NCBI GenBank assembly: GCA_976551045.1
Contig: CDPCPM010000012.1
Location: 6,882,001 to 6,946,000 of the forward strand
Direction: 5' to 3'
DNA from: Glaucostegus cemiculus
Taxonomy: Eukaryota
DNA length: 64,000 nucleotides
The notes under the pieces were generated by a model, which saw only the letters and a program-made list of their open reading frames with translations, was not told the origin of the DNA and searched no databases. Shown piece after piece: positions 3,097 through 64,000 of this stretch (position 1 is its first letter; each line of letters starts with the position of its first letter). A program made the translations under genes and the position numbers.

Positions 3097-4748
3097 ATAG
3101 AGAACATATAGAACACCACAGCACAGTACAGGCCCTTCGGCCAACAATGTTGTGCCCACGTTTTATCCTGCTCTGAGATCTATCTAATCCTCCCCCCCCC
3201 CCCCACATAGCCCCCTATTTTTCTATCATTCATGTGTGTCTAAGACTCTCTTAAATGTCCCTAATGTATCTGCCCACACAACCTCTGCAGGCAGTGTGTT
3301 CAATGCACCCACCACTCTTTGTGTAAAAAACTTACTCCTGACATCCCCTTATATCTGCCTCCAATCACCCTAAAATTATGACCCCTCATGTTAGCCATTG
3401 TCACCCTGAAAAAAAGTCTCTGACCGTCCACTTGATCTATGCCTCTTATCATCTTGTACACCTCTATCAAGTCACCTCTCATCCTCCTTCGCTCCAAAGA
3501 GAAAAGCCCTAGCTCGCTCAACCTATCCCCATAAGACATACTCTCCAATCCAGGCAATACCCTGGTAAATCTTCTCTGCACCATCTCTAAAGCTTCCACA
3601 TCCTTCCTACAATTAAGCAACCAGAAGTGAATACAATACTCAACTGTGGTCTAACCAGAGTGCTATAGAGCAGCAACATCACCCTGTGGCTCTTGAACTC
3701 AATACCCTGACTAATGAAGACCACCACTCCACATGCCTTCTTACCACCCCTGTCGACCTGCATGGCAACCTTGAGGGATCTATGGACGTGGTCCCCAAGA
3801 TCCCTCTGTTCCTCCACACTGCTACGAGTCCTGCTATTAACCTTGTATTCTGACTTCAAGTTCTATTTCCTGAAGGTATCACTTCACACTTATCCGGGTT
3901 GAACTCCATCTGCCACTTCTCAGCCCAGCTCTGCATGCTATCAATATCCTGTTGTAATCTACAGCAAACTTCTGCACTATCCATTCTTGGTGTAGCAGCC
4001 AGCATAATCAAAGACCCCACTCATCCGGGACATTCACTCTTCTCTCCTCTTCCATTGGGTAGAAGATATAGGTGCCTGAGGGCACGCATCACCAGACTTA
4101 AAGACAGCTTCTTCCCCACTGTGATAAGACTATTGAACAGTTCCCTTATACAATGAGATGGTCTGTGACCTCACATTCTACCTTGTGCGACCTCGCACCT
4201 TATTGCACTGTACTTTCTCTGTAGCTGTGACACTTTATCCTGTACTGTTACTGTTTTCACTGGACTATTTCAATGCACTTTGTACTAACTATGTAACTAT
4301 GTGTAATGAATTGACCTGTACGATCAGTTTGTAAGACAAGCTTTTTCACTGTACCTCAGTAAAAGTGACAGTAATAAACCAATACCAATCACCAGCAAAC
4401 TTACTAACCCACCCTTCCACATCCTCATCCAAGTCATTTATAAAAATTACAAAGAGCAGGGATCCCAGAACAGATCCCTGCGGGACACCACTGGTCACCA
4501 ACCTCCAGTCAGAATATGCTCCATCTACCACCACCCTTTGTCTTCTATGGGTGAATCAATTCTGAATACACATAGCCAAGTTTCCCTGGATCCCATGCCT
4601 CCTGACCTTCTGAATAAGCCTTCCATGAGGAACCATATCAAATGCCTTACTAAAATCCATGTAAACCATATCTTCATCAATGTGCTTTGTCACATCCTCA
4701 AAGAATTCAATCAAGCTTATGAGGCACTCCTGCCCCTCACAAAGCCAG
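3097..4748 (-). mobile_element. CR1 LINE 3' fragment (RT C-terminus plus 3' tail), degenerate
   Basis: ORF pieces [49 protein letters not shown] and [15 protein letters not shown], plus the CR1 tail gggccgaagggcctg. Confidence 0.93.
3994..4389 (+). mobile_element. Rex1/Babar LINE 3' fragment nested in the CR1
   Basis: AASIIKDPTHPGHSLFSPLPLGRRYRCLRARITRLKDSFFPTVIRLLN is the Rex-Babar C-terminus. The tail is tttcactgt...aataaacc aatacc. CR1 rejoins across the insertion as ...ggtgt|caccagcaaac (FAGDTK). Confidence 0.9.
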
Positions 4749-5554
4749 TACCTCTGCAATTTATTCTCTCTCGCACATGCCTATCAACTCCCATTTTGAT
4801 TCTTTTTTGCCATTAACCACTATTAGAATAATTTTTGGTAGCCAATTAACCTACTAGCATGCCTTTGGGGTGTGAGAAGAAGCTGGAGCACTCAGAAGAA
4901 AACACGTATGATCATGGAGAGAATGGGCAAACTTCCACAGACAGCACCATTAGTTAGGATCGAACCCCGGTCTCTAGAGCTGTGATGAGCACTACCAAAT
5001 GCTGTACCACGTTGCTGGCCACTATGCATCCGACCCTCTGTTTTACAGGGATGGCTGGCATTTGGGGGATGTTGCCATCCATTTGAATGAGATTGGTGTC
5101 TTTGTGAAAAAAGATAAAATGCTGGTAAGCATCTGATTATTTTTAATTTTTTTAAACATTATATTGGTATCTCAAGGTTCCCAATTATTATTATTTATTA
5201 TTTCAAACTATTTGAATAGTTTTAAAGATGTCTCTAACTACCACAGACATTTAAAAGCAGTGTCTTGTCTTGTCTCTCAGAGGCCATTTTGCCCCTCAGG
5301 TTGGCAGGTGCCACAGCAGCAAGTTGGTGCAGCGGGCCATGTCCAGCACAGCCCAGCCCGATAACAGAACTTGAAAAAGCAATGAAGATTTTGGATGGGT
5401 CCTAATCATGGAAAGAGAGAAGGAATCTAGTGTCTAAGAGGGAAGTGACCAATGGCCGGGTGTCAATGGGATTGGAATCAGAGGAATATGAAATGCTGGG
5501 ATGGAGATATGGGAAAAGTGAGGTTATAAAGGAACCTAAGGAGCTTAGTAGACA

Positions 5555-6397: not shown

Positions 6398-6544
<147 letters not shown>

Positions 6545-12607: not shown

Positions 12608-13460
12608 CAGAATCAGAATTATTATCACTGACATATGTTGTGAAATTTGTTGTTCTGCAGCAGCAGTACAATGCAAAACATAAAAATTACTAAGTTACAT
12701 ATTATATATAAAATGTATATTATAAATTACTAAGTTTTATATATATTTATATACACACATTATATACATATATATTTTTTAAATTTTATTTACAGCGTGG
12801 TAACAGGCCCTTTCGGCCCAACGAGTCCACGCCACCCATTTTAAACCCCCAAATTAACCTACCCGTATGTCTTTAGAATGTGGGAGGAAACCAGAGCACC
12901 TGGAGGAAACCCAGGCAGACACGGGAGAATGTACAAACTCCTTACAATCAGCAACGGGAATCGAACCCCGATCGCTGGCGCTGTAACAGCGTCACGCTAA
13001 CTGCTACGCTATCATGCCGCCCCACATATATACATATACATATCTCCTCAAACTCCTAATTAAGTAGAGTCACTGGCATGTTTTCTTCATGTGTTGGGCC
13101 CAGGATAGATCTTCTGAGATGCTGTCCTCCCAGGAACTTGACACTGCTCACCCCTTCCATCGCTGATCCCTCAATGAGGACTGGTGTGTGTTCTCCTGGC
13201 TTCCCCTTCCTGAAGTCCACAATCAATTCCTTGGTCTTGCTGATGTTGAGCGCGAGGCTGTTGTTGCGACACCACTCAACCAGCCGATCTATCTGACTCC
13301 TGTACACCTCCTCGTTGCCATCTGAGATTCTGCCAATAACAGTGGTGTCATCGGCGAATTTATGGATGGTGTTTGAGCTGTGCCTAGGCACACAGTCATG
13401 AGTGTAGAGAGAGTAGAGCAGTGGGCTAAGCAGGCATCCTTGAGGTGCACCTGTGTTAAT
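12608..13460 (-). mobile_element. Rex1/Babar LINE fragment (RT core plus 3' tail, internally deleted)
   Basis: TGAPQGCLLSPLLYSLYTHDC...KFADDTTVIGRI...LNISKTKELIVDFRK in ORF 13056-13520. Rex-type tail at 12608-12690. Confidence 0.88.
12775..13023 (-). mobile_element. Young full-length V-SINE (tRNA head, V-domain, short CR1-type tail) with 9-bp TSD
   Basis: Head ggcggcatgatagcgtagcagttagc...ggttcgattcccg. TSD ACATATATA at 12766-12774 and 13024-13032. Confidence 0.9.
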
Positions 13461-16400
13461 TGCTGCAGGATATAGACAACAGAACCCTGACATCACATTT
13501 TGCTTCTTGAAGCCTTCCACTCATTGTGAAGTCTGCAACTATCTCTTATTCATATATCCTTGTTCATAACAGCATTGAAGCACTTGGTGTGCAGCTCATT
13601 GAGTATCTTTAAAAAGTTTATTTTCTTCAATTCCCCAAAATAGAAACAGAAACAATTAAAGCTTTTAGAGTAGTGTTCATCTCTAGCAATCAGTAGCTTT
13701 TTTATATTTATTATTAATAGTATCCAGCACAAAAAAAGACAGCTGTATTACATTAATTACTAGTTTTAATGCCATTAATATTCACCAAGAATAAATACTA
13801 ATGTAGCAAAAGTGGTTAGTCTAATTTGCAATAAATTAGGAAATACAGTGGTTTATCACTAGTTATACTTGATGAAGTCTGTGAATAACTATTCAGATAA
13901 AATATTAATGCTTAGCATAGGCCCTATGGAATCATTTTGCACAAAAAATTCATCCAACAATTCTGTGCCAATTCTATCTCATGTCCTTTTCATATTCAGA
14001 AAGTTAAAACTTAACAGATAAAAACGTGCAAAAAAAAAGCACAAAAAAGGAAATGTTACACCAGGTCAGTCTCCAATGTTAGTGAAGGAGCAGTTACACC
14101 ACAGTGTAACCAGATTTGTATTTTCTGATTGCATGTTGATCACATCTAGATTATAAATATTTCAATTGAAGGTAGATTTTTTATTTGCATATTTCTATGG
14201 TTATTAACAACTATATTGAAACCACAATGGAAAGACAACTAAAATTAATAGTTGTACTGGAATTCACAACCTAACAGAAAAAAGTAGCGACAGGAAGTGA
14301 AAGCTGAAATTTAATTTTTTTTTAACCACATAGACCATATGATTGACACAGATGGAAGCTGCATAAACTACCAAGGACTAACAGCACGGCAGATCTATCG
14401 TGATATTTGTAAGTCAACAAGGCCACCTTCATTTTTTTGTTATAATGGGACATAATTGGGTTTCCCAAATCCTTTACCAAAGAATGACAAATGCTGTTAA
14501 CTGCTACTGAAATAAACTTCTCCACCTTCCCTGTATGCCATTATCATCTAGTGTACCAGGCCACTATTATCATAAAAATGTTTGGCTGCATTACAATACA
14601 TCGATGGGAATAATACCTGAAGAAAGATTAATGCCTTACCTGCTCTGTCTTATCAACACAATACAGCCAAATTAGGATTTTATTTAAGGATTAAACCAGT
14701 AGTCACACAGCAATATTTACTTCCAAAAGAGTAGCATGGGAGAAATCCTTCTATGGTTACCAGCAGTAAAAACGAGCTTGATTATTGGCTGCCATTTCTA
14801 ACTTCTATTAGCTTCAATGGGATCAATGATATGTAGATGTGTAAAATTGACAAGAAATGCACGTGTCCAGCATCAGCAACCAAAATCAAATTTTACCCCT
14901 TAGATTTTCACAAGCCACCCGCTAAAACAAATTCCAACAGTGGTGTCAGCCAATCTGTTTTCAATTGTCTGTTGATGCCATTCTACATGTGTAAACAAGC
15001 ATGTTCAGAAAACTGGATTAGTGTGACATGATCTCTTTATCCTTTCCCTGAGCCACCTAGCTTGCACTTGGTACCCTGCACTTCATTCCATAAGCCCAGC
15101 TAAGCAGTGCAATTTTTCTTTAACAATAAAATTCATGGCCTCTTTCAATGCCTCTTCTCCACTGATGGATGCAGTCCTCAATATAGGAATAGGAAAGACT
15201 ATTTACAGAAGTCAGCCAACTTTTAAATACTTTCTTCTGTCACACATGGCACAAACATCATGTATTTTTGGATATTTTACTGTATTTTAAGTGTATTCTA
15301 AAATATAAAAATAATTAAACAAATATAAACTTAACACACTTGAACTTATACTTATTAATATACCTCATTTCACTGCAAATCTGATTAGTACTCCAAAGTA
15401 CTTCCACCAAAGAAAATGAAAACATAGCTTGATTCTATTTTCTCAACAATTCCAACGATGATTTACCAGTTACAATCTTTCTCAGTCTATGAGGTGCCAA
15501 TGTCTTTTCAATAACATGGGATGAAATAAAAAAAACACGAGCAATTATTTTTAATGTAGAAGCAAAATGATGTAGACCATCAAAAGCGTTCTTACTCTGG
15601 AATCAATATTGTTAACAAGTATATTAAGGATGCAAGTTTCTTTTCGAATCAGGCATGTTTTTAATCATTAAAACACAAACATAGGGTTCCCCTATGATTG
15701 GGAATATTAAAGCAGTTAATAATTTCTAATAAAGTGGAAACCAGGAGATTATTTTCAGGTTTTTACTTAAATAACTTGCATTGATTCAAATATAAAAAAT
15801 ATTTACTAAGAGGATAAACTGAAAAACCATCATATTGAAATGGATTTATTATAAAAGGAAAAATGCAGTTTACATTCCTGACATTTGCAGATCCTATATA
15901 ATGAAGCAAATGATATTTAGCTTGAAGGTTTGTTTTTAAAGAGAAAATATAAAATTCATTACTTAGATACATGTTCCAAATCACAGACTGCTCTGACTAC
16001 ACAATGCTTATTTGTTTTACCTGTTACTAAAAAAATGTGGGCTCTTCATGTAATCCTAATACATTTTGTTACAAGGATGATTAGTTATACACATATGCTG
16101 ATCAATCAATTTTTTTGCAGAATACAGCCATCTATAAAAGACAAAATATAGATCATGAAAAAAATGACACCATTAAAAGGTGAATGTGTGCCAAATGTTT
16201 TACTATGGCGGTAGAAAGTGCCCTTTCAGCAGCTTTTCACAAGTGACGAAGAAAATATTATTTAAATCTCTCAGCAAATTGCATTAAAATATTATAAAGT
16301 CCATGAAATCTTTAACCATTCAATGCAGCCTTCAAAACATTGGAAAGATTTTAACATAATCAGCATTGGTATTAACATTGTTAATAAAATTATGGTCTTG

Positions 16401-21719: not shown

Positions 21720-22230
21720 GGAATCAATCATATTGACAAACCTGACAAACTCCATTTAGCTGCCGCAGTAAACAGAGTGGTGGGCCATGAAACACTAATA
21801 AGCCTCCTGTACAAACTCAGCTTTCTGCAGATACAGATTACACCCGCAAGGGTGAGCACGGACTGACGTGATATAAAGTCAATCAGCCACACCCTGCTCA
21901 CCAATCCCAACTACTCACCATCATCAATCCATGAGATTCAGATGCCTCTTGAAGTGGCCCTCCTCTTTTGTGATGACAGGTGAAATAAAGTCCTTGTCTA
22001 AGGGACTTCATAGTCAATTGTTTGCTGAAAGAACTCTAGCTTATTTTTCACAAAGAAAAATGTGTGTTAATTCCTACTTTGTAGTTTTGTCTTTTGACAA
22101 TCAGCTCAAGCTCATGCCAAGTTACTCTATCAGCAGCAATGTACTGAGATCTGAACTATAAACATTTTATTAAAAATAATTAATGCAGCAGTTCTAATGT
22201 CATATTGTTCCCACTTCCTGTTTTCTAAAC
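21720..22230. promoter_or_regulatory. Candidate conserved non-coding element / intronic promoter
   Basis: TE-free and locally richer in GC/CpG. It contains a CRE-like TGACGTGA, CCAAT, PBX-type TGATTGAC and TGATTGAT (minus strand), GTAAACA, an ETS site (CACTTCCTGT ~22212) and a strong minus-strand donor ATG|GTGAGT at 21919/21918. Confidence 0.4.
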
Positions 22231-49117: not shown

Positions 49118-50460
49118 CATAGAACCATAGAAAAATTCAGCACAAAACAGGCCCTTCGGCCCACCATGTTGTGCCGTCCATCAAACCTCACACGATCTAA
49201 CTCTTTCCCCCCACATATCCCTCTATCCCACATTCCTCCATATGCCTATCTAACAATCTCTTGAACCTGTCCAACATATCTGCTTCCACCACAATGCCAG
49301 GCAGCGCATTCCATGTACCAACCACTCTCTGGGTGAAAAACCTCCCTCTGACATCTCCCCTGAACCTTCCACACAAAATCTTAAAGCCATGCCCTCTCGT
49401 CTTGAGCATCTGTGCTCTGGGAAAGAGGCGCTGGCTGTCAACTCTATCTATTCCTCTCAATATTTTATACACCTCTATCAAGTCTCCTCTCATCCTCCTC
49501 CTCTCCAACAAATAAAACCCTAGCACCTTAAGCCTCTCCACATATTCCATACCTCTAATCCAGGCAGCATCCTGGTAAATCGCCTCTGTACCCTCTCCAA
49601 CGCCTCCACATCCTTCCTATAATGCTGCGACCAGAACTGAACACAGTACTCTAAGTGCAGTCTAACTAGAGTTTTGTAAAGCATCATCATCACCTCGTGG
49701 CTCTTAAACTCAATCCCACGATTTACAAAGGCTAACATCCCATAAGCCTTCTTAACTGCCCTATCCACCTATGAGGGAACTTTGAGTGAACTGTGGATAT
49801 GAACCCCCAGATCCCTCTGCTCCTCTACACTGCCAAGTCCTTGTACTCTGCCCTGGAGTATGTCCTACCAAAGTGCACCACCTCACACTTCTCCAGATTA
49901 AACTCCATCTGCCAGCTGTCCGCCCAGCTCTGCATCCTATCAATATTCTTCTGTAAGCTCCGACAGTCCTCCACACTATCCACCACACCGCCGATCTTGG
50001 TGTCATCTGCAAATTTACTAACCCATCCTTCCATCCCTTCATCTAAGTCTCAGAACCGATCCCTGCGGGACACCACTAATCACAGCCCTCCAATCCGAGG
50101 GCACTCGCTCCACCACAACCCTCTGCTTTCTACAGGCAAGCCAATTCCTGATCCACACAGCCAATCTCCCCTGAATCCCTTGACCTCTGACCTTCTGAAG
50201 AAGCCTACCATGAGGATCCTTACTAAAATCCATGTAGACCACATCCACCGCACTGCCCTCATCAATCTTCCTCGTGACCTCCTTAAAGAATTCTATAAGG
50301 CTCGTGAGACAAGATCTTCCCTTCACAAAGCCATGCTGACTGTCCCTAATCAGTCTGTGACTCTCCAGGTGTTCATAGATCCTGTCCCTTAGAATCCTTT
50401 CCAACAGCTTACCCACCACAGAAGTGAGAGTCACTGGTCTGTAATTCCCTGGACTATCCC
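49118..50460 (-). mobile_element. Young 5'-truncated CR1 LINE
   Basis: LTSVVGKLLERILRDRIY...SQHGFVKGRSCLTSLIEFF...KFADDTKIGG...LEYCVQFWS...[16 protein letters not shown], with a (TTCTATGG)n tail. Confidence 0.95.
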
Positions 50461-50499
50461 TATTTCCCTGGACTATCCCTTCATCTATTTCCCCGGACT

Positions 50500-50950
50500 A
50501 TTTCCATCATCTTTAAGGCACAAGTCTGGAAGGAGTACTCCCCATTTGTCAGAATGAATGAAGCTCCAATGGCATCACTCAGGACAGAGCAACCCACTTG
50601 TTTGGCACTCCAATGATAAACATTTATTTCCTTGCCACCAGGGTACTATAGTTATAGTACGAACTGTCTACAAGATGCACCCGAGCCACTTCCTTGGACA
50701 ACGGTCCCCAAAACCTGGCGAGTGGGAAGTGAATATATCATCACACTTAGATTCAATTCCAAGTTAGACATCATACTGCTTTGGAAATATAACACAGTTC
50801 ATTTTGTATGGCATGGTTAAAATCTTGGAACTCTCTACCTAACAGCATTGTGGATGTAACTTTACCACAAACTCCACAGCAATTCAGTTAAGCAGCTCAT
50901 CACCACATTCCCATGGATAATTAGGTGTGGGCAATAAAAAGCTGACCTTG
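50500..50950 (+). mobile_element. Old CR1/L2-group LINE 3' part (host of the young CR1)
   Basis: catctttaaggcacaagtc continues the family seen at 33120, and its upstream part lies at ~49065-49110. Confidence 0.6.
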
Positions 50951-51751
50951 TGGGAGCATGGACTTAGCATAAGAGGCCAGCTATTTAGGACTAAGATGAG
51001 GAGAAACTTGAAGTGAACCCACCCACCAGGCAACCTCTTATGGGACTGGATAGACAAAGGTACAGTGATCTGCTGAACTCAGATCTCTCTTACCAACATT
51101 TCACCCTCCAGACCTGGAGCTGAGCCAGCTGACTGACTCCAAATCCTTGGTTATTTGTCCCTGCTTCTGTCTTCACACTTCTCTGAATCAGCTTTCTGTA
51201 CAATCTGAGCAGGCCTCTGCTCGCAATGCAGAGGGATGTGATAATTGGTAGTGGGTAAATGTCTCTGATCATACAGAATAGAAACCAGTTCCCATGTGCC
51301 ATTTCTCTCTTCCTATTGGAGAATGCTGCCTATGGCTGTCAAGGTCTCCATGACATTGAACTTTTGTGCATTTGGTTTGTAAGTGCTGTTGATGAGATCA
51401 CTAAAACTTATTTCAAAAGATCTGACTACATTTTATTCTCTTGCTTGAGACCAGCAAGAGGGGATACAGCCTTACAGGAAACACAAGACTTTTCTAGGAT
51501 TCTGATGGTGCAAGCAGCTGTTGATTGTATGCATATAAGTTTGTTAACTGTTTTTTAATGGCTTCTTCAATGTAGCTGGCACAGCAGACTGTGACAGAAT
51601 GAAGGAATTACAGCATCTGGATTTGGGGCATGTTTGAGGCACAACTGAAGTGTGAAAAGGGGGATTGGATATTTTAGAACCAATATTTTCAGTCTTCTGC
51701 TTGGAGGGTAGGATGTGGGGGAATCCCTCTTCTATCCCTGATAGTTTCTGG

Positions 51752-52907
51752 TGCGTTTGATAAGGTTCCTCGTGGTAGGCTTCTTCAGAAGGTCAGAGGT
51801 CGAGGCATCCAGGGGAGTTTGGCTGTGTGGATCAGGAATTGGCTTGCCTGTAGAAAGCAGAGGGTTGTGGTGGAGGGAGTGCCCTCGGATTGGAGGGCTG
51901 TGACTAGTGGTGTTCTGCAGGGATCGGTTCTGGGACATCTACTCTGTTATATTTATAGATGACTTAGATGAAGGGGTGGAAGGATGGGTTGGTAAGTTTG
52001 CTGACGACACCAAGATCGGTGGTGTGGTGGATAGTGTGGAGGACTGTCAGAGCTTACAGAGGGATATTGATAGGATGCAGAGCTGGGCGGACAGGTGGCA
52101 GATGGAGTTTAATCCGGAAAAGTGTAAGGTAGTGCACTTTGGTAGGACAAACTCCAGGGCAGAGTACGAGGTAAATGGCAAGGTACTTGGCAGTGTAGAG
52201 GAGCAGAGGGATCTGGGGGTTCATATCCACAGTTCACTCAAAGTTCCCTCGTAGGTGGATAGGGCAGTTAAGAAGGCTTATGGGATGTAAGCTTTAATAA
52301 ATCATGGGACTGAGTTCAAGAGCCGAGAGGTGATGATGCTGCTTTACAAAACTCTAGTTAGACTGCACTTAAGAGTATTGTGTTCAGTTCTGGTCGCCGC
52401 ATTATAGGAAGGATGTGGAGGTGTTAGAGAGGGTACAGAGGCGATTTACCAGGATGATACCTGGATTAGAGGGTATGGAATATGAGGAGAGGCTTAAGGT
52501 GCTAGGGCTGTACTCGTTGGAGTGGAGGATGATGAGAGGGGACTTGATAGAGGTGTATAAGATATTGAGAGGAATAGATAGAGTTGACAGCTAGCGCCTC
52601 TTTCCCAGAGCACAGATGCTCAAGATGAGAGGGCATGGCTTTAAGATATTGGGTGGAAAGTTCAGGGGAGACGTCAGGGGGAAGTTTTACACCCAGAGAG
52701 TGGTTGGTGCATGGAATGCACTACCTGGGGTTGTGGTGGAGGCAGATACATTGGACAGGTTCAAGAGATTGTTAGATAGACATATGGAGGAATGTGGAAT
52801 AGAGGGATATGTGGGAGGAAAGAGTTAGATCGTGTGATGTTTGAAGGACAGCACAACTTGGTGGGCCGAAGGGCCTGTTTTGTGCTGTATTGTTCTATGG
52901 TTCTATG
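51752..52907 (+). mobile_element. Young 5'-truncated CR1 LINE, same subfamily as 49118-50460
   Basis: AFDKVP.GRL...KFADDTKIGGVVDSVEDCQSLQRDIDRM..., with a (TTCTATGG)n tail at 52893-52907. Confidence 0.95.
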
Positions 52908-56185: not shown

Positions 56186-58806
56186 AAATCCTTAAGGGAT
56201 TTCATACACGATGTAGAAATTTATTTATTCAGAAAAAATCTGCAGTGGTGAGATTCTTCCAATTTAAATTATATTTATTATTATTATAACCTTACATTGA
56301 GTGGCATAATCACACAGAAGACTCAGGAACTCAAATCATACAGATGTGAACTACAACCTTTCCCCAGTCAAACTAACCAATGAACAAAGGCTGTTAACAT
56401 TAAATGCTTCAAAAAGAATAATAAATCTACACCTTCAGTGAAACACAGAAAGCTGAGATGTGATGGTAATTTTTACATTTTCACAGATCGACTATAATTC
56501 AAAAGAGAAAATCCACAAAACAACAACTACATTGTTAGGGTAGCAACACCAATCTGATTCTAGTACTTCACATTCCAGTTAACTTTTTTTGATATGCAAA
56601 ACATTTCTTAAAATCCTTAACCTTTGTTGAAGTATTTTAACTGCAAATATGTATGGTGCATTTATAAAGAAATTCCACACCTATACAGCCAATCTGAAGT
56701 GTCGAGGATATGCTCTATACTATATTTGCGAGGATCCATTACGAATACATAATCACAGCCCAAATTCTGCTTTATACAAGCAAGCAATGGAACTGGTTGA
56801 TGCTGACAATATTGTTTAAAATAAATTCTCTTTTCAAAACGAAATCAGCTTCATCCAAATATTGGTTACAAAACCCATATGGATGACAGCAATATCACTG
56901 TCTTGCTACTTCAGCTAGTCTTCTTGACTGGGCATAATGCCAATAAGGGTAGACCGCCCCTCATTGTCACTTCTATAGTGTGGCATTTGCACCAACTGCT
57001 GTTATTCTGGGCTTCAGGAAATATTCTAACCACTGGATGGGCTCCAGTGCTGTGCAGTAATGAGTTGCAGATTTGAGCACTTTGGTGTGCATATGCAGGG
57101 ACAATGCTATGGTGTGTACAGCACAGTAGTTCAAATGCTGCTTCCACAAACTAAAGGAAAAAGACCTTGGCTCACAACACAAAAAGCTTCAGACTTTGAA
57201 GAAAGGTAAGTATTCATCTCCCACCATGATCCATATTCAGCCAGCTGAAAGAGAGAAAACACGGCACTATTTGACCTTAGTAGGAAACCCTCTAACCCAC
57301 ACAATTATTTAGTTTAAGTCATTATTAGGATGTGAGTTATGCTTTTTATAACATGTGGATTTCTATTCAGAAAAGAAAAACTAAGCAACTGCAATATTAT
57401 AAGACTCTGTTTTGAGTTCAGCCTACTTCTTAAGCCTGCTAATATTATACAGGAAATAATGAGCACTATTTGCAAAGATCACGTCATAATGTTTTCATTG
57501 TCCCTTGTACATATTTTTATAATACTAAGACATCAGACAAATTTCACCCAGTAAGAAAATTACATGAATGGAGGGCACTTTGAACAGAGAACAGTTGGTT
57601 GTTCTGACAATTCTCATGTACACTAATCCAAGACATTAAATTTAGTTCCACATCCTGCTACACAGTTTGGTTTGATAGCTTTTTTTTCACACAAATGAAA
57701 AAACCTCAGAGTACATAGTTCTTGCATTACCTCATGCCTACATGCAATATGTTGACTTCACTTGTTTAAACTACACATTAAGAAGTTCATTGTGGAACCA
57801 TGTGGACATAACATCTTCAACACAGCTGCACATCACATAAACCGCAATAGGTGGCAGCAGTCTTCCCATGATTCCAAACAGAGCAGAATATTATTTCCAC
57901 AATTTTAATGCCCCTGCTTGTGGCAGTGTTACAAAATAAAACTATATTTTTCCACAGTATTAGTGGACTATCAGCAAGGGTCCAGCGCTGTAGTTCCTAA
58001 TTACCTTCTTCTTCACTCTTGATCCTGTGGCTCTCATAATTAGTTACCTGGGGCTGCAATCCAATTTGAAGTGATGACAAGAAAGTGATCCATGAAAAGT
58101 AATAAGTTAAATCCAATTTCAGTCTGCCTCTAATTAAATGCACATGGAACTAATGACTCAACCCTACCATTTCAGTGATAATGTTAATTAGCTAGGTGGG
58201 AGTCTCTTTTGCAGTATTCTATGTGTAAACCAAGTAATAGGGGGAAGGGATGTCCATAATTACACGTGACATTTTTTGGAAAATTGTCAGCAATTTGCAC
58301 GTTTATGATTAGTCAAATATACTTAGTTTGTCTTTTGTACCTCCTTAAAAAAAACTGTTGTGCGCTGTACATCAGTTTGAAGAATTGATTTGCACTCCAG
58401 GCTATGTTTTGCATTCTAATACAAGAAGCTAATAATATCTTTTACAATATCTGCATCACATAACCCACAAACACAGAATTTAAATTCATTCTGTAAGCCC
58501 AATTTAACTGAAAACTAATGATGGCACAGGCAAAGTAGTACTTTAGTCACTTAAAGCAAAAGAGAGCAACAGCCAGATGGGCCTAAACTGGATCAACACT
58601 CAGACCATTTTACAACAATTTACTTAATTCATGCCCCAGAATCAATTCTCCTACATTTTGCAGCAATTACCATCTTTGCTAGTTTAAGGTCTATGAAGTT
58701 TTTACAAGACAACAGAAAAGCAATTTCTACACGTCAGGTAAGCTTCAGTACACAGAAATAAATTCAGTGGGTCTAATACCCCAACAATCTATGTGAGTGT
58801 GTGCTG

Positions 58807-58847
58807 ACACATGCACGCACACATAGACATAGACACACACACACACT
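58807..58847. repeat. Imperfect (AC)n microsatellite
   Basis: acacatgcacgcacacatagacatagacacacacacacac. Confidence 0.8.
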
Positions 58848-59469
58848 TGCATGCACTTAAAAGAATACAATTGTCTTAGCCAGTCATATTTGAGAGGAAA
58901 GTGGTGGATTGAAGAGGTGTCCAAGTAGAATTTTAATTGTCAATCAAATGATAATGGCAAAAATGACCTAATTACTCCCATGAAAGTCACTTATTTTAGT
59001 TGGTGAGTCAGTGAAGTCGGACAACGGTCAGCAATGCGAGCATCTTATAATAGTCAGCTGAGTTACTCAGCTGATCATGAACTGCTTCAATATTAAGCCT
59101 ACATCTGCAGTGACTCTGGAGCTTGAATCCTTCAAATTAAAAACATGAAATCACCAGAAAATCCTTCCCCAACGTGTTTTAATCATTATCAGATGTTTAA
59201 AGATCATTTATTTTGAAACTACTTCATCTAAAGTTAGTCTTCAAAGAAGGTGCATTGAAGAGTTAATCCAGTGAGAATTTTAAATAGATCCTAGGCAGAA
59301 TTGCTGTTCAACACTAAATTATTTGATCTCATCAATTCAACAATTAGTTTGGGGTGGAGGTGTGGGAAGAACAGGATAAGGCTACCATTGGCCACTAAGC
59401 TCTTGGGTTATTAATCAGAAAGTTAGCCAATTCCATGACTCATACACAAATGCTCTGTCTTAGGATGTT

Positions 59470-59797: not shown

Positions 59798-60621
59798 CAG
59801 TGTTTAGGACTGGAGTTCAGAGAGGCACACCATACTAAATTGATAATAAATTTTCAGCAAAAATCTCATAACTATCATTTTTTTGTTTCTTATACTTTTA
59901 GTTTGAAATTGTCCTTACTCATACAAATCTTCCTCTGCTATAAACATTTCGCAATCCTAGTTCAATGCAACTAAATTTAAAACTGTTTAAGGAAATGCAG
60001 AAGCTTATTTCTCTCATGTACAGTTTTACTGTGTCATTAAAAAAGGCAACAATGCACATTACTGAATTATATTTAATATAACATCAATGAGAACAACAGA
60101 ACACAGACAGAAGATATCATTCATTAAATAGAGGGTGTATAGATTTAAATATAAATGTTAAATATCCAAGTTAGCATCACAATGATGGAAAGGTGCACTT
60201 AATTCAAATGACTTAATGATGACATTCAGTTTGATCATCAAGCTTTCATAAGAATCAACAGTTACCTTAAAAAAAAATCTTCCACTTGGTGGCTATTGTC
60301 GATCTTTGTAACAAAAATTGCTAGCTTGGGTATAAAAAGTGATTAGTTTTGGTCCTTTCAAATTATTTGAATCCTCACCAACATACTGAGAGAAATTATT
60401 TTTCATTTTCCTTGGGAATTTTCAAAAACATTAGCACAACAAAGCACTTCTTTGGTGCCTAATGTCCAGCCTATTAGACGATAGCACATTAAGTGATGAC
60501 TATATTGTCATTCCATTAAATATGGCACATGACAGTTAGGTCAAGTTGTACATGGTTTCTATCCAAAAAAGAACTAGGTACACACATTATGTATCATCCA
60601 TATATAAAAGAATACACTTAC

Positions 60622-60711
60622 CTGTAGGGTTGGTTGCTTGTCATTTCCCTTGGGAGACTTCAACCCACTAGCTTGTTGCTGTAGCAGAAGCTGCCGTGCA
60701 ACTTGAAGAGC
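60622..60711 (-). CDS. FOXP1: FOXP1 internal coding exon (90 nt, phase 0/0): [30 protein letters not shown]
   Basis: Minus strand reads tttatgtag|GCT CTT CAA GTT GCA CGG...ACC CTA CAG|gtaagtg, with a canonical acceptor and donor. ALQVARQ and NDKQPxLQ match FOXP1 (ALQVARQ...KRNDKQPALQ) better than FOXP2 (ALQAARQ...SSDKQRPLQ) or FOXP4. Confidence 0.9.
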
Positions 60712-62039
60712 CTACATAAAAAAAGAATAACATTCACCTTTTAACCATAAATACACCCAATGGGACAGTTTACTACTCCATAATACAAAGAAGAATAATA
60801 GCAAATAGTGTTGCATACCATTTGTTTTACCATCAAAAACTACAAGTTAATATCCTTAAAACATTTAAACAGATAAACCAAATTTATTTCCATTGATGGC
60901 AGTGCCACGTATAATTCTGCAGCATTAAATTCTGCAAGTCTCTTTAAAGCTAACAGTGCTTTTATTGAACATAAATGTGCATCAACAAAAAAAATCTGCA
61001 TTTCAATGCCTCTTTTTCCACTAAAATTTCAGACTATATTGATGGATGGTTGTCATTTGATATGAAATTTTCAAAGGGAACAATATATTATGAAAAGCTG
61101 GCGAGCATGTTCCAGAACAGCTAAGCCAAAGAATCCCTTGTGGCTGTGAGTGGGAGAAAAATAAAATAGGACATTGCAAAATGTTCTACAAACTAAAAGA
61201 AAAACAAAAATTGTAAGAGCTATCCTTATACTATGAAAAGTTAGATTCAGATAAAATTATTGGCCAGATCATTAAAGATGTTTCCACAAATACAGTGCAC
61301 TCTGGGGTAAATCAGAAGTGAATTAAAAAATTTATGACATAATATCAAAACCAAAATCATACCCTAGATTGTTGGCTTTAAAAGAGTTCAGATGCACTAA
61401 AACATAGACTGGCTGCTGGAAATTAAAACCCAGTACAGTTGTTTTATGCCCAAGCTACTCCCTTTTCCTTCTGATAAATAATCAGAGACTGTCCAGAATA
61501 AACAAAACCAATAAGCTGGGAAATTTGATGGCCATCAGAACTATGAAGATACCAACAGAAAGCAACTCATAGTTCCCACAGTGACTTAGTTCCACACCTA
61601 CATCAGCATAACATCTGAGTAAATAAATTCAGTCACTCTTTCCATTCCCCTCCCCCATGTGATTACTCCTACTAGAAAACAGTTCAGATCAGTTTCAAAT
61701 ATCGGACCACTTTTAAGCACAAAAGACAATTTTAATGCAGTTGGATTTTATTTTGTAAATATGTTTTGTGCATGCTTTAAGATACTGCATATTCTTTGTT
61801 ACCATCTGTTATTTGACTCTATTTATCATGACTTTTTAGTTATACACTCATATACAACACAAATTGATCAAATATAAACTAATTCTTCGTAACATTTTCC
61901 TTACTCCTCAGCATGACCTAATTTACCACCAATTTAAGGTTAAATCGTAACATTTGCATCTTTCGACAACTCCCTTATTCAGCTCATCAGTATTGTTTCA
62001 TGTGACAGATTTAATTCTGGATATGACACAAACAATTAC

Positions 62040-62250
62040 AGAGAAAGTGGGGAAGTTTACCGAAAGAGCTTAGTGCCTCTAAATTTCCGTCGGCTTGCAG
62101 TTGTTCTTTGGCTGTTGCTGTAGAGCGGGGGTTGAAGAATGGTGTAAAGATGTTGAATAAACAGGAAGTGCTGTGCAGCTGAAACACACTGAAATGAAAA
62201 TATACTGGAAGGCTGCCCTTTCTGGCCAGCTAAAAAGGCCCGTTTCCACA
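62040..62250 (-). other. FOXP1: Candidate alternative internal first exon of FOXP1, apparently non-coding here
   Basis: Shifting frames give FQYIF, HSTSCLFN, HSSTPALQQQP, KPTEI and FGKL. These are collinear with the N-terminus I recall for a human FOXP1 isoform (MFQCVF...HSTSCLFK...HSATPASQKQP...KKTEI...FAKLFIFS|ALQVARQ). Candidate donors are TCT|GTAATT (exon end 62040) and TCG|GTAAAC (62061). The 5' end is approximate. Confidence 0.7.
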
Positions 62251-62760
62251 GTAGCAATACCCACATAAGCAAATGAGAAATAAACAAAAAAGTACAATAC
62301 CCATCTTGACTGTGCTCTCAAATTTATCCTTGATTCTACTCATGATAAGGCTCCCTTCTGTCAGGTGTGTGCCTCAATATAAACATCTTCCAGCATAGAA
62401 AACTGGTGCTGCTTTGCAACACTCCAAGGCAAGACAGCTTGTAAAAAGATGAGCTGCCACACAAACGTTTACAATATAACTGGAACAAAATTCCTTTAGA
62501 AATCTTAGTTCTGTTGTGGCAACTGCCTGCTGGCTCACTGGGACTGATTTGTTATTTTGCACAGTCTCAGCCTGTCTGTCATCCTGGGTGCTAATGCTCC
62601 AGTAAAATAACTCATTGGGAGCTGTCATGGGGATGTTTACACAAGACTATTCCTTTCTTCATACAAGGAAATTTTTTTCTGGAACTCATCTTCTTTTGAT
62701 CTCACATTCAAAGCAACACCACCGTGATAGACATACAAGTCTTAAAGCAAATCCAGACAC
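62250..62760 (-). promoter_or_regulatory. Putative internal promoter/enhancer upstream of the alternative first exon
   Basis: TE-free stretch immediately 5' of the candidate exon. It carries several forkhead-type sites (ATAAACA ~62280 and ~62379; TGTTTAC ~62634) and a GATA site (TGATAA ~62343). Confidence 0.4.
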
Positions 62761-63089: not shown

Positions 63090-64000
63090 AACATAAGAAA
63101 TAGAATCAGGAGTGGACCATTTGGCCCCTCAATCCTGATCTCCCCATTCAATGAATTTGTTACTGATCCTTTACCTCAGCACCACTTTTGCGTACTAACC
63201 CCTTATCACTTGATTCCACTAATATCTAAAAATCCACCTCAACCTCTATCTTGAATATACTCAACAACTGGGTCCTCTGGGATACAGAATTCCAAAAATT
63301 CTCTGCCCTCTGGGTGAAGAAATGTTTGTCTGAGTCACCAAACCCTTCTGCTGAGCCAGTGACTTCCAATTCTAAAGGCATCCAGTCAGGCAAAGCATTA
63401 TTCCTGCATCTATCCTGTCAAGCCCTGCAAGAATTTTACACATTTCAATGAGATCACCTCTCATATTTCTAAACTAAAGAGAGAATAGGGAGTGGTCTGC
63501 TTAATCTCTCTTCATGGAGCAAACACCCCAGCCCAGGAATCTGGTGAACCCTCCTTGCAGTTCTTCAACTGCATGCTCTCCCTCATCAGATAGACCAGAC
63601 CAGACCTTAATATAATATTCCAGTTGTAGCCCAGTACTCAAATCCAACATATAATTTACTTTTCTAATTGCTTGCTGAAGCTGCATGTTAACTTTCAGTG
63701 ATTTGTGTACAAGAATACAAAGTGTGCTGTTTTGCGCTCATCACTATTTATTGTTCTGTTTATTGTTACTTCATTTACTGTTTACTCTGTGAGCTTCACA
63801 AGAGCAAAGAATTTCATTGCGCCTGATGTATATGACAATGTAATCTGAATCAAAGTCCCTCTGAATATCAACATCTTTGTCTTTCATTATTTAAATAACC
63901 CTACTATTCATAGCCTTCCAAGTCAAAGACAACCTCATCCATTCTTCTGTTTTCTGCCTGTTAACCAATCTTCAATCTCAAAGTTTTCCCTGATCACTAG
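63090..64000 (-). mobile_element. Old CR1 3' region
   Basis: acataagaaatagaatcaggagtggaccatttggcccctc tail. ORF 63501-63686 reads QLEYYIKVWS...LQGGFTR. Confidence 0.8.
63724..63850 (+). mobile_element. Short Rex-type LINE 3' tail inserted in the CR1, with 6-bp TSD
   Basis: CAAAGT at 63718-63723 and 63851-63856. Tail is gaatttcattgc...tgtatatgacaat..aatctgaat. Confidence 0.65.

What the first reader, a model, noticed from the sequence alone, without database searches (positions are those of the whole stretch)
62040..62300. Deeply conserved but apparently non-coding alternative first exon of FOXP1
Seen: 1.3 kb upstream of the ALQVARQ exon, the minus strand carries collinear blocks FQYIF, HSTSCLFN, HSSTPALQQQP, KPTEI and FGKL, ending at TTTCTCT|GTAATT. 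The blocks sit in different frames, with TAG after KPTEI and no ATG at the corresponding position. Recalled knowledge: a human FOXP1 isoform from an internal first exon begins MFQCVF...HSTSCLFKHLFYHSATPASQKQPEPIYSKKTEI...FAKLFIFS and splices into ALQVARQ, and internal FOXP1 promoters give N-terminally truncated isoforms in B cells. Inference: the exon predates the split between cartilaginous and bony fish and is conserved at the DNA level. HSTSCLF is encoded by CACAGCACTTCCTGTTTATT, an ETS site overlapping a forkhead-type site. The mammalian coding N-terminus may therefore be a later or incidental ORF on an ancient promoter/5'UTR exon. Here transcripts would probably initiate at ATG-ATG (6526-6521), possibly under control of the uATG at ~62266.
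Basis: partly seen in the sequence, partly recalled or inferred. Interest (0 to 1): 0.8.

Follow-up and report, generated by a model that had tools for sequence, protein, structure and literature searches.

The report
Ancient non-coding FOXP1 alternative exon
In this ray's FOXP1 gene a spliced exon with stop codons and no in-frame start codon matches the exon that mammals annotate as an alternative protein start, so it is likely an ancient regulatory leader, predicted to yield the short FOXP1 isoform, whose mammalian peptide would be a later add-on.

Summary
The blocks lie in two frames, GCC stands where mammals have ATG, and two in-frame stops precede the donor. Mammalian proteins fetched here, including human Q9H334-3, carry the recalled N-terminus. 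Their back-translated profile aligns to this spot, ending at 62040 (80.3 bits; shuffled maximum 36.4). RNA shows the exon spliced to the ALQVARQ exon, but from donor 62061, not 62040 (1 read, 1 contig). New: a marsupial (Dromiciops) is annotated with the same exon read largely in other frames (17 of 62 residues identical to human), and third codon positions are conserved (12 of 14). DNA, not peptide, is therefore the conserved thing. Best reading (0.7): an ancient non-coding 5' exon of an internal promoter, probably human exon 6b, giving FOXP1 that starts at MMTPQ. Not shown: the transcription start, the protein, the ETS/forkhead motif's function, any uORF control. RNA counts are tiny, and no DNA of bony fish, amphibians or reptiles was compared.

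The parts
62061..62289 (-). Alternative 5' exon as far as RNA shows it; the upper bound is a lower limit, not a mapped start
   Evidence: X1 contig 62060-62250 joined to the next exon; X2 contig 62074-62289; X14 reads; no depth at 62325-62660 or in the intron bins in 4 of 4 runs
62040..62255 (-). Block homologous to the mammalian alternative N-terminal exon and about 15 codons upstream of its ATG
   Evidence: P0212: 84.1 bits, 89 of 117 fixed positions; Dromiciops: 70.1 bits, 73 of 96
62156..62169 (-). ACTTCCTGTTTATT: ETS core overlapping a forkhead-type site; on the + strand it reads as a FOX:ETS-type composite (motif label recalled)
   Evidence: DNA inferred from human and Dromiciops peptides read in two frames agrees with the ray at 23 of 24 positions; 11-mer found 2 times in the window, 0.07 expected (pattern chosen after the fact)
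62211..62213 (-). GCC at the position of the mammalian ATG
62070..62081 (-). Two stops (TAG 62081-62079, TAA 62072-62070) in the frame that is in phase with FOXP1
62059..62061 (-). Splice donor used in RNA (exon ends 62061; TCG|GTAAAC)
   Evidence: joint 60710/62060, GT..AG on the minus strand with cut +1; 1 read in X14, 1 contig in X1
62038..62040 (-). Second donor-like site (TCT|GTAATT), 21 nt further down, matching the mammalian exon end; use not seen
   Evidence: alignments end at 62040; no joint listed
60712..62060 (-). 1349-nt intron
60622..60711 (-). FOXP1 second coding exon (ALQVARQ; human exon 7 equivalent); no in-frame ATG
6407..6544 (-). FOXP1 third coding exon (human exon 8 equivalent), with the first in-frame ATG-ATG at 6526-6521
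   Evidence: (100% identical to chondrichthyan FOXP1); X1 loose end joins exon 7 to it
62264..62266 (-). Out-of-frame uATG, weak context; would open an 85-codon uORF ending 56 nt before the main ATG in the 62061 model
   Evidence: lies above the homology block; inside the X2 contig, outside the X1 contig
60642..60644 (-). Second out-of-frame ATG in exon 7; 14-codon uORF whose stop overlaps the main ATG

Best explanation
[quoted passage not shown] Shown: sequence, homology, splicing 62061 to 60711, lack of an in-frame ATG, different reading frames in human and marsupial annotations. Inferred: transcription starts at or above 62289, inside the 89-kb intron after the first coding exon. An ETS factor and a forkhead factor would bind the composite site inside the exon, and this DNA role is what selection keeps. 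Ribosomes would scan past two out-of-frame ATGs and start at 6526, giving a protein 93 residues shorter, the counterpart of human FOXP1-iso (delta-N100). In therian mammals an ATG in the exon (gained there, or lost in rays) lets the same DNA be read as a 61-62-residue leader whose amino acids are not what is conserved over long distances.
For: Splicing: joint 62061>60711 with GT..AG ends in 1 X14 read (reads 99+% alike) and 1 X1 contig (depth 7.8, against 34.3 for the exon-7 contig); all laid read pairs have the first mate on +, which in most stranded libraries means minus-strand RNA. Homology: 80.3 bits against shuffled maximum 36.4 of 222; 16 of 391 N-termini scored reach 53 bits or more, the next is 23.7. 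DNA over peptide: Dromiciops P0322/P0323 share the start and the end with human but only 17 of 62 residues, while the rest of the protein is 95% identical over 477 residues; gene model P0188 reads the motif in a third frame; DNA inferred from two frames matches the ray at 41 of 46 fixed positions, 12 of 14 third positions. Position: between first (G000:C12:7032052) and second coding exon. Product: 53 of 479 fetched proteins start at MMTPQ, 11 of them chondrichthyan predictions; human FOXP1-iso starts at M101 from a transcript lacking exon 6 (PMC5394978). First exon: contigs run unbroken across the acceptor-like sites at 62188, 62178 and 62117 and show no upstream joint or loose end.
Against: RNA support is thin: 1 of 8 reads crossing the exon-7 acceptor in X14 and X15 came from this exon, 7 from the canonical exon; X15 had none; 18% and 24% of these runs were read; 4 of 19 listed runs were laid. 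Contigs cannot show a start, and X1 and X2 are RNA by guess only. No TATA box and no CpG island (CpG o/e 0.23). Among placentals 53 of 62 residues are invariant in 10 proteins, which fits protein-level selection there as well. No non-mammalian bony vertebrate showed the exon, though a protein search cannot see a non-coding exon. Of 7 listed substitutions in X1 and X2, 4 are silent in the in-phase frame; too few to test. P0188 does not read GT-starting valine after the mammalian exon end, which is unexplained.
Confidence: 0.7

Rival explanations
1. The element is a conserved enhancer (FOX:ETS type, endothelial or blood) acting on FOXP1's main promoter. The spliced transcript is a low-level by-product with no selected protein output.
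For: The composite motif is the best-conserved part. The human FOXP1 locus has a validated FOX:ETS endothelial enhancer (PMC10952167 table). FOXP genes hold 61-66 ultraconserved elements (PMC11276968). Junction reads are rare (1 of 8). The donor differs between ray RNA and mammalian annotation.
Against: Spliced into the same exon in rays and mammals (16 proteins). Conservation runs through both donor sites. X1 contig depth is about a quarter of that of exon 7. Exon 6b transcripts were frequent in human 5'RACE (PMC3887110), if 6b is this exon.
Confidence: 0.17
2. It is an internal cassette (poison) exon spliced between exons 6 and 7, whose stops send the mRNA to nonsense-mediated decay.
For: Two in-frame stops just above the donor; acceptor-like AG sites at 62437, 62421 and 62386; low abundance.
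Against: No upstream joint or loose end; contigs end at 62250 and 62289, short of those acceptors. None of the 3 fetched proteins with an insert between exons 6 and 7 matches the segment (13.0-15.8 bits). Mammalian annotations start in the exon.
Confidence: 0.06
3. It is an ancestral coding exon for an alternative N-terminus that decayed in rays, or is still translated there from a non-AUG start.
For: Start-to-donor length is a multiple of 3 in ray (171 nt from 62210 to 62040), placentals and Dromiciops; human and Dromiciops share the ATG; placental peptides barely vary.
Against: Human and Dromiciops peptides are in different frames over most of the exon. Third positions are about as conserved as first and second (12/14, 14/15, 15/17). 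Only 3 codons separate the last stop from the used donor, and none is a start codon.
Confidence: 0.05

Closest known systems
Human FOXP1 alternative exon 6b / UniProt isoform Q9H334-3 N-terminus (P0291)
   Same: Homologous sequence; spliced to exon 7; lies after the first coding exon. Full-length proteins with this N-terminus weigh 76.2 kDa, as does FOXP1-011, the exon-6b isoform in PMC3887110 (76 kDa); the other 6b transcript there, FOXP1-009, is 573 aa/64 kDa, the size of an MMTPQ-start protein (64.3-64.7 kDa).
   Different: No ATG, two stops and several frame changes in the ray; donor 21 nt further up. The name '6b' for this exon is inferred from protein mass, not from a sequence.
FOXP1-iso / FOXP1S (delta-N100, start at M101 in exon 8) and mouse Foxp1 short isoforms from alternate 5' exons
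   Same: Same predicted product: exon 6 absent, exon 7 onward present, start at the first in-frame ATG of exon 8 (PMC5394978; PMC7145990).
   Different: Reported for human and mouse lymphocytes; protein, tissue and inducibility are untested in the ray. Several different 5' exons can give this product.
FOX:ETS composite endothelial enhancers (De Val 2008), including Foxp1+138
   Same: Overlapping ETS and forkhead-type sites, deeply conserved, inside FOXP1.
   Different: Foxp1+138 is at human chr3:71,493,515-71,493,886, which by my recall of the gene's layout is far upstream of the coding exons, so a different element. Binding and reporter activity are untested here; the motif lies inside a spliced exon.
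Conserved non-coding and ultraconserved elements of FOXP loci
   Same: Shark-to-mammal conservation in a FOXP intron is common (PMC11276968).
   Different: This one is exonic, gapped, and annotated as coding in mammals.

Membership tests
Orthologue of the mammalian alternative N-terminal exon (probable exon 6b) | Sequence homology above chance | tested here: met
Orthologue of the mammalian alternative N-terminal exon (probable exon 6b) | Lies between first and second coding exon and splices to the second | tested here: met
   position; joint 62061>60711
Orthologue of the mammalian alternative N-terminal exon (probable exon 6b) | Own ATG and open frame into exon 7 | tested here: not met
   GCC at 62213-62211; TAG and TAA in frame
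Orthologue of the mammalian alternative N-terminal exon (probable exon 6b) | Same donor as in mammals | tested here: inconclusive
   Site present at 62040 but no joint listed; 2 records use 62061
Orthologue of the mammalian alternative N-terminal exon (probable exon 6b) | Identity with the exon named 6b in the literature | tested here: inconclusive
   Mass agreement only; no 6b primer in the supplement read; Brown 2016 not held
First exon of an internal promoter | Capped 5' ends in or just above the exon | not testable with these tools
   Contig ends 62250 and 62289, no upstream joint, too few raw reads for start sites
FOX:ETS enhancer | Conserved composite forkhead-ETS motif | tested here: met
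   the consensus itself is recalled, the source paper was not held
FOX:ETS enhancer | Bound by ETV2/FOXC-type factors and drives an endothelial reporter | not testable with these tools
   Needs binding and transgenic assays
Poison cassette exon | Premature in-frame stop | tested here: met
Poison cassette exon | Upstream junction from a coding exon | tested here: inconclusive
   None seen in 4 runs, at very low depth
Structured non-coding RNA | Rfam match or unusually stable fold | tested here: not met
   No Rfam match over the exon; fold weaker than shuffles, z +2.04, 199 of 200 shuffles fold as well

The most novel reading that the evidence does not exclude
A 450-million-year-old promoter exon was turned into a sequence-blind translation switch: therian mammals gained an ATG in it, and selection keeps only an open frame in phase with exon 7, so that the promoter makes long FOXP1 (with the exon-7 glutamine tract) instead of short FOXP1, while the leader's amino acids are free to change frame. 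Human and Dromiciops share ATG and donor with different frames between; a 60-codon stop-free run has a chance of 0.12 at this composition, times one in three for phase. Against: only open frames get annotated as proteins, 1 of 10 named marsupial genera showed it (15 of 49 members of their main cluster listed), and P0188 breaks the frame.
Probability: 0.2. Interest if true: 0.7.

Novelty: new variant of a known kind. Interest (0 to 1): 0.48.

Why it matters
Short FOXP1 isoforms from internal promoters matter in B- and T-cell activation and lymphoma, and were described in human and mouse. A spliced, non-coding orthologue in a ray would date one such promoter to the jawed-vertebrate ancestor, the age of adaptive immunity (dating from general knowledge). 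It points to a 14-bp ETS/forkhead site as a testable core. It also warns that a curated human isoform N-terminus (Q9H334-3) may be conserved for its DNA, so variants there should be read as regulatory as well as missense. It is a clean case of coding sequence arising on a regulatory exon. The surprise is moderate: FOXP introns are known to be full of ancient conserved elements.

Tried and rejected
Protein search with the ray's HSTSCLFN frame: 31 candidates, none at E <= 10; uninformative for a frame-shifted exon. Pattern scan of metagenome contigs for vertebrate DNA: 1 match (L002), a chance hit in what reads as a bacterial gene region, no further similarity. Run search: no RNA holder on record was listed; no evidence either way. 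Paralogous copy: 1 match genome-wide by DNA search, and no more than 24.7 bits, within the null, in about 20 kb above the exon-7 equivalents of the two FOXP paralogues on C142 and C141; only part of those introns was read. RNA structure: rejected. Homology above 62255: none for codons 1-43 of P0212 (17.7 bits). Identity with Foxp1+138: rejected from coordinates plus recall. Earlier findings of this scan: none. dN/dS: not possible, since no mammalian DNA was available; 7 substitutions among rays are too few. The stretch above 62660 has no RNA evidence laid on it.

Full report
Setting. The window is G000:C12:6882001-6946000 in a 2.85-Gb genome. It holds two FOXP1 coding exons on the minus strand: ALQVARQ (60711-60622) and VPVSVAMM (6544-6407). 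The second is 100% identical to chondrichthyan FOXP1 proteins. The first coding exon lies outside the window at C12:7032052, 89 kb above the ALQVARQ exon. It matches batoid proteins best (52-57 of 57 residues, against 51-54 for sharks and 45 for chimaera), so I call the animal a ray.

Observation. All five blocks are present in the stated order. FQYIF, HSSTPALQQQP and KPTEI share the frame that is in phase with FOXP1 at either candidate donor; HSTSCLFN and FGKL lie one base off. That in-phase frame has TAG at 62081-62079 and a second stop, TAA at 62072-62070. GCC stands at the mammalian ATG position.

Homology. A direct protein search with one ray frame found nothing. I then fetched 479 proteins through FOXP exon queries and cluster look-ups (at most 15 members per cluster were listed). 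They include the recalled N-terminus in human (P0291, named Q9H334-3), other primates, carnivores, camelids and an anteater. A nucleotide profile back-translated from 7 of these scores 80.3 bits on the window and ends at 62040, just before GT. The best score elsewhere in the window is 25.7; 222 shuffles give mean 24.3, sd 2.0, maximum 36.4. Plain tblastn gives E 0.001 and 0.003 in two different frames. Of 391 N-termini scored, 16 reach 53 bits or more and the next is 23.7: 13 placental proteins, 2 of Dromiciops and gene model P0188. With the upstream extension in P0212 the homology reaches 62255 and no further.

Transcription and splicing. The run search listed 19 runs and no holder on record as RNA. 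I laid 4 of them on 60500-62660. One joint appears: 62061 to 60711, skipping 1349 nt with GT..AG ends on the minus strand. It is carried by 1 raw read in X14 (all 5 laid reads 99+% alike) and by 1 contig in X1, a relative (depth 7.8, against 34.3 for the exon-7 contig, which runs on into exon 8). A contig in X2, another relative, covers 62074-62289. The canonical upstream exon accounts for 3 reads in X14 and 4 in X15, so the alternative junction is 1 of 8. X15 showed nothing on the exon. No joint at 62040 is listed; a joint with under 3 reads and no contig would not be. First mates all lie on +, as expected for minus-strand RNA in most stranded libraries. The depth table implies a second X14 read on the exon whose other part is not reported. 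Limits: 18% and 24% of the raw runs were read, human-like reads are dropped without notice, X1 and X2 are RNA by guess, and contigs do not show starts.

What is conserved is DNA. (a) Dromiciops isoforms P0322 and P0323 begin MFQ, end FIFS and splice to ALQVARQ, and align to the same ray interval (70.1 bits, 62210-62040; maximum of 60 shuffles 27.8). But they read ALPVYS where human reads HSTSCLF, and DGNL where human reads KTEI; each of these matches one of the ray's frames. Identity to the human leader is 17 of 62, against 95% over 477 downstream residues. (b) Human HSTSCLFK and Dromiciops ALPVYS are compatible as two frames of one DNA, which 4 of 2000 random 6-mers are, and that DNA agrees with the ray at 23 of 24 positions. 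(c) P0188 reads the motif in the third frame and then shifts into the placental frame; this may be a real frameshift or a model error. Combining it with camel P0225 fixes 46 positions, 41 of which match the ray, including 12 of 14 third positions, with 2 gaps (this assumes the two species share the DNA). (d) In X1 a C>T at 62168 changes the threonine of HSTSC but keeps the GGAA core (one contig). Against: placental leaders are invariant at 53 of 62 columns in 10 proteins, which DNA or protein selection could both give; and 4 of 7 listed ray substitutions are silent in the in-phase frame.

Donors. Two GT sites 21 nt apart are in the same phase. Non-primate placental peptides (SVK) and Dromiciops (GK) are compatible with the upper site, primates (FAK) are not (inference from peptides). 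All annotated mammalian leaders end at the lower site; the two ray records use the upper. P0188 continues with histidine after FIFS, which does not fit a simple read-through of a GT donor and is unexplained.

Product. In a spliced model from 62289, the first in-frame ATG is 6526 (context GTGGCTATGA). Two out-of-frame ATGs precede it: 62266 (weak context; 85 codons, ending 56 nt before the main ATG) and 60644 (14 codons, stop overlapping the main ATG). Proteins starting at MMTPQ make up 53 of the 479 fetched, 11 from cartilaginous fishes; these are predictions, and their first exons are not visible here. Nothing supports a conserved role for the 62266 uATG.

First exon or not. Contigs cross the acceptor-like sites at 62188, 62178 and 62117 unbroken and stop at 62250 and 62289, below the next ones at 62386-62437. 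No TATA box or CpG island is present. This favours a 5' exon, but does not prove it. The exon has no Rfam match and folds less stably than shuffles. No paralogous copy was found.

What is known. PMC3887110 (passages; supplement file 2 read whole; file 7 not searchable): 5'RACE from exon 7 often found exon 6b, shared by FOXP1-011 (76 kDa) and FOXP1-009 (573 aa, 64 kDa). Proteins with the MFQCVF leader weigh 76.2 kDa and MMTPQ-start proteins 64.3-64.7 kDa, so this exon is probably 6b. PMC11171328 (passages): long FOXP1 starts in exon 6 or 6b. PMC5394978 (passages; supplement passages, files 3-4 not searchable): FOXP1-iso lacks exon 6 and the first 100 residues. PMC7145990 (passages): alternate 5' exons also in mouse. 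PMC10952167, PMC5295818, PMC11896612 (passages): FOX:ETS motifs and the Foxp1+138 enhancer. PMC11276968 (passages): 61-66 ultraconserved elements in FOXP genes. PMC9576946, PMC4777777, PMC11380455, PMC6812510 (passages) added nothing on this exon. Brown 2016 and De Val 2008 were not held; I saw their titles only, the FOX:ETS consensus is recalled, and their text or supplements may already cover the exon's conservation. Searches for this exon outside mammals or for its frame changes returned 0 papers, 2 general ones, and nothing further; most subscription papers are not searched.

Verdict. The exon is real, spliced and homologous to a mammalian alternative N-terminal exon, and it cannot encode that N-terminus here. 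The strongest new point is that human and marsupial annotations read the same exon in different frames. My odds: homology 0.99, spliced exon 0.93, first exon about 0.75, short isoform as selected output about 0.6, motif functional about 0.5; overall 0.7. It is a new variant of a known kind, interest 0.48.

Noticed in passing
L015:4935-4967 minus strand (G000:C12 about 7010937-7010969): A second alternative exon in the same intron reads MDDRTLSWSTK then a GT donor. Near-identical in-frame N-termini are annotated in sharks (P0049, P0141, P0177), a turtle (P0342) and frogs (P0381, P0383, P0441). Unlike the exon studied, it looks conserved as peptide.
   Followed up: partly
window 60642-60644, minus strand: Out-of-frame ATG inside exon 7 whose 14-codon frame stops on the main ATG of exon 8; it could damp translation of every short-isoform transcript that includes exon 7. 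Codon conservation not checked.
   Followed up: partly
window 22213-22223, minus strand: The only other AAACAGGAAGT in the window, in the 54-kb intron between exons 7 and 8; a candidate FOX:ETS site, conservation unknown.
   Followed up: no
proteins P0045-P0048, P0154, P0314: Five shark proteins and one sheep protein begin with a lone methionine spliced onto exon 7, implying another upstream exon that ends in ATG; not located in this genome.
   Followed up: no
window 62033-62178: X14 depth implies a second read on the exon that is only partly laid and not listed as a joint; it could skip exon 7 and join exon 8, which is a guess from depth arithmetic.
   Followed up: no
window 58705-58881, minus strand: Weak Rfam match to sno_ZL1 (27.9 bits, gathering score 64, E 0.00073); probably chance.
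   Followed up: no
window about 3300-4800, 13060-13520, 49200-52830, 63200-63740: Decayed reverse-transcriptase-like fragments typical of LINE/CR1-type repeats (labels recalled; translations).
   Followed up: no
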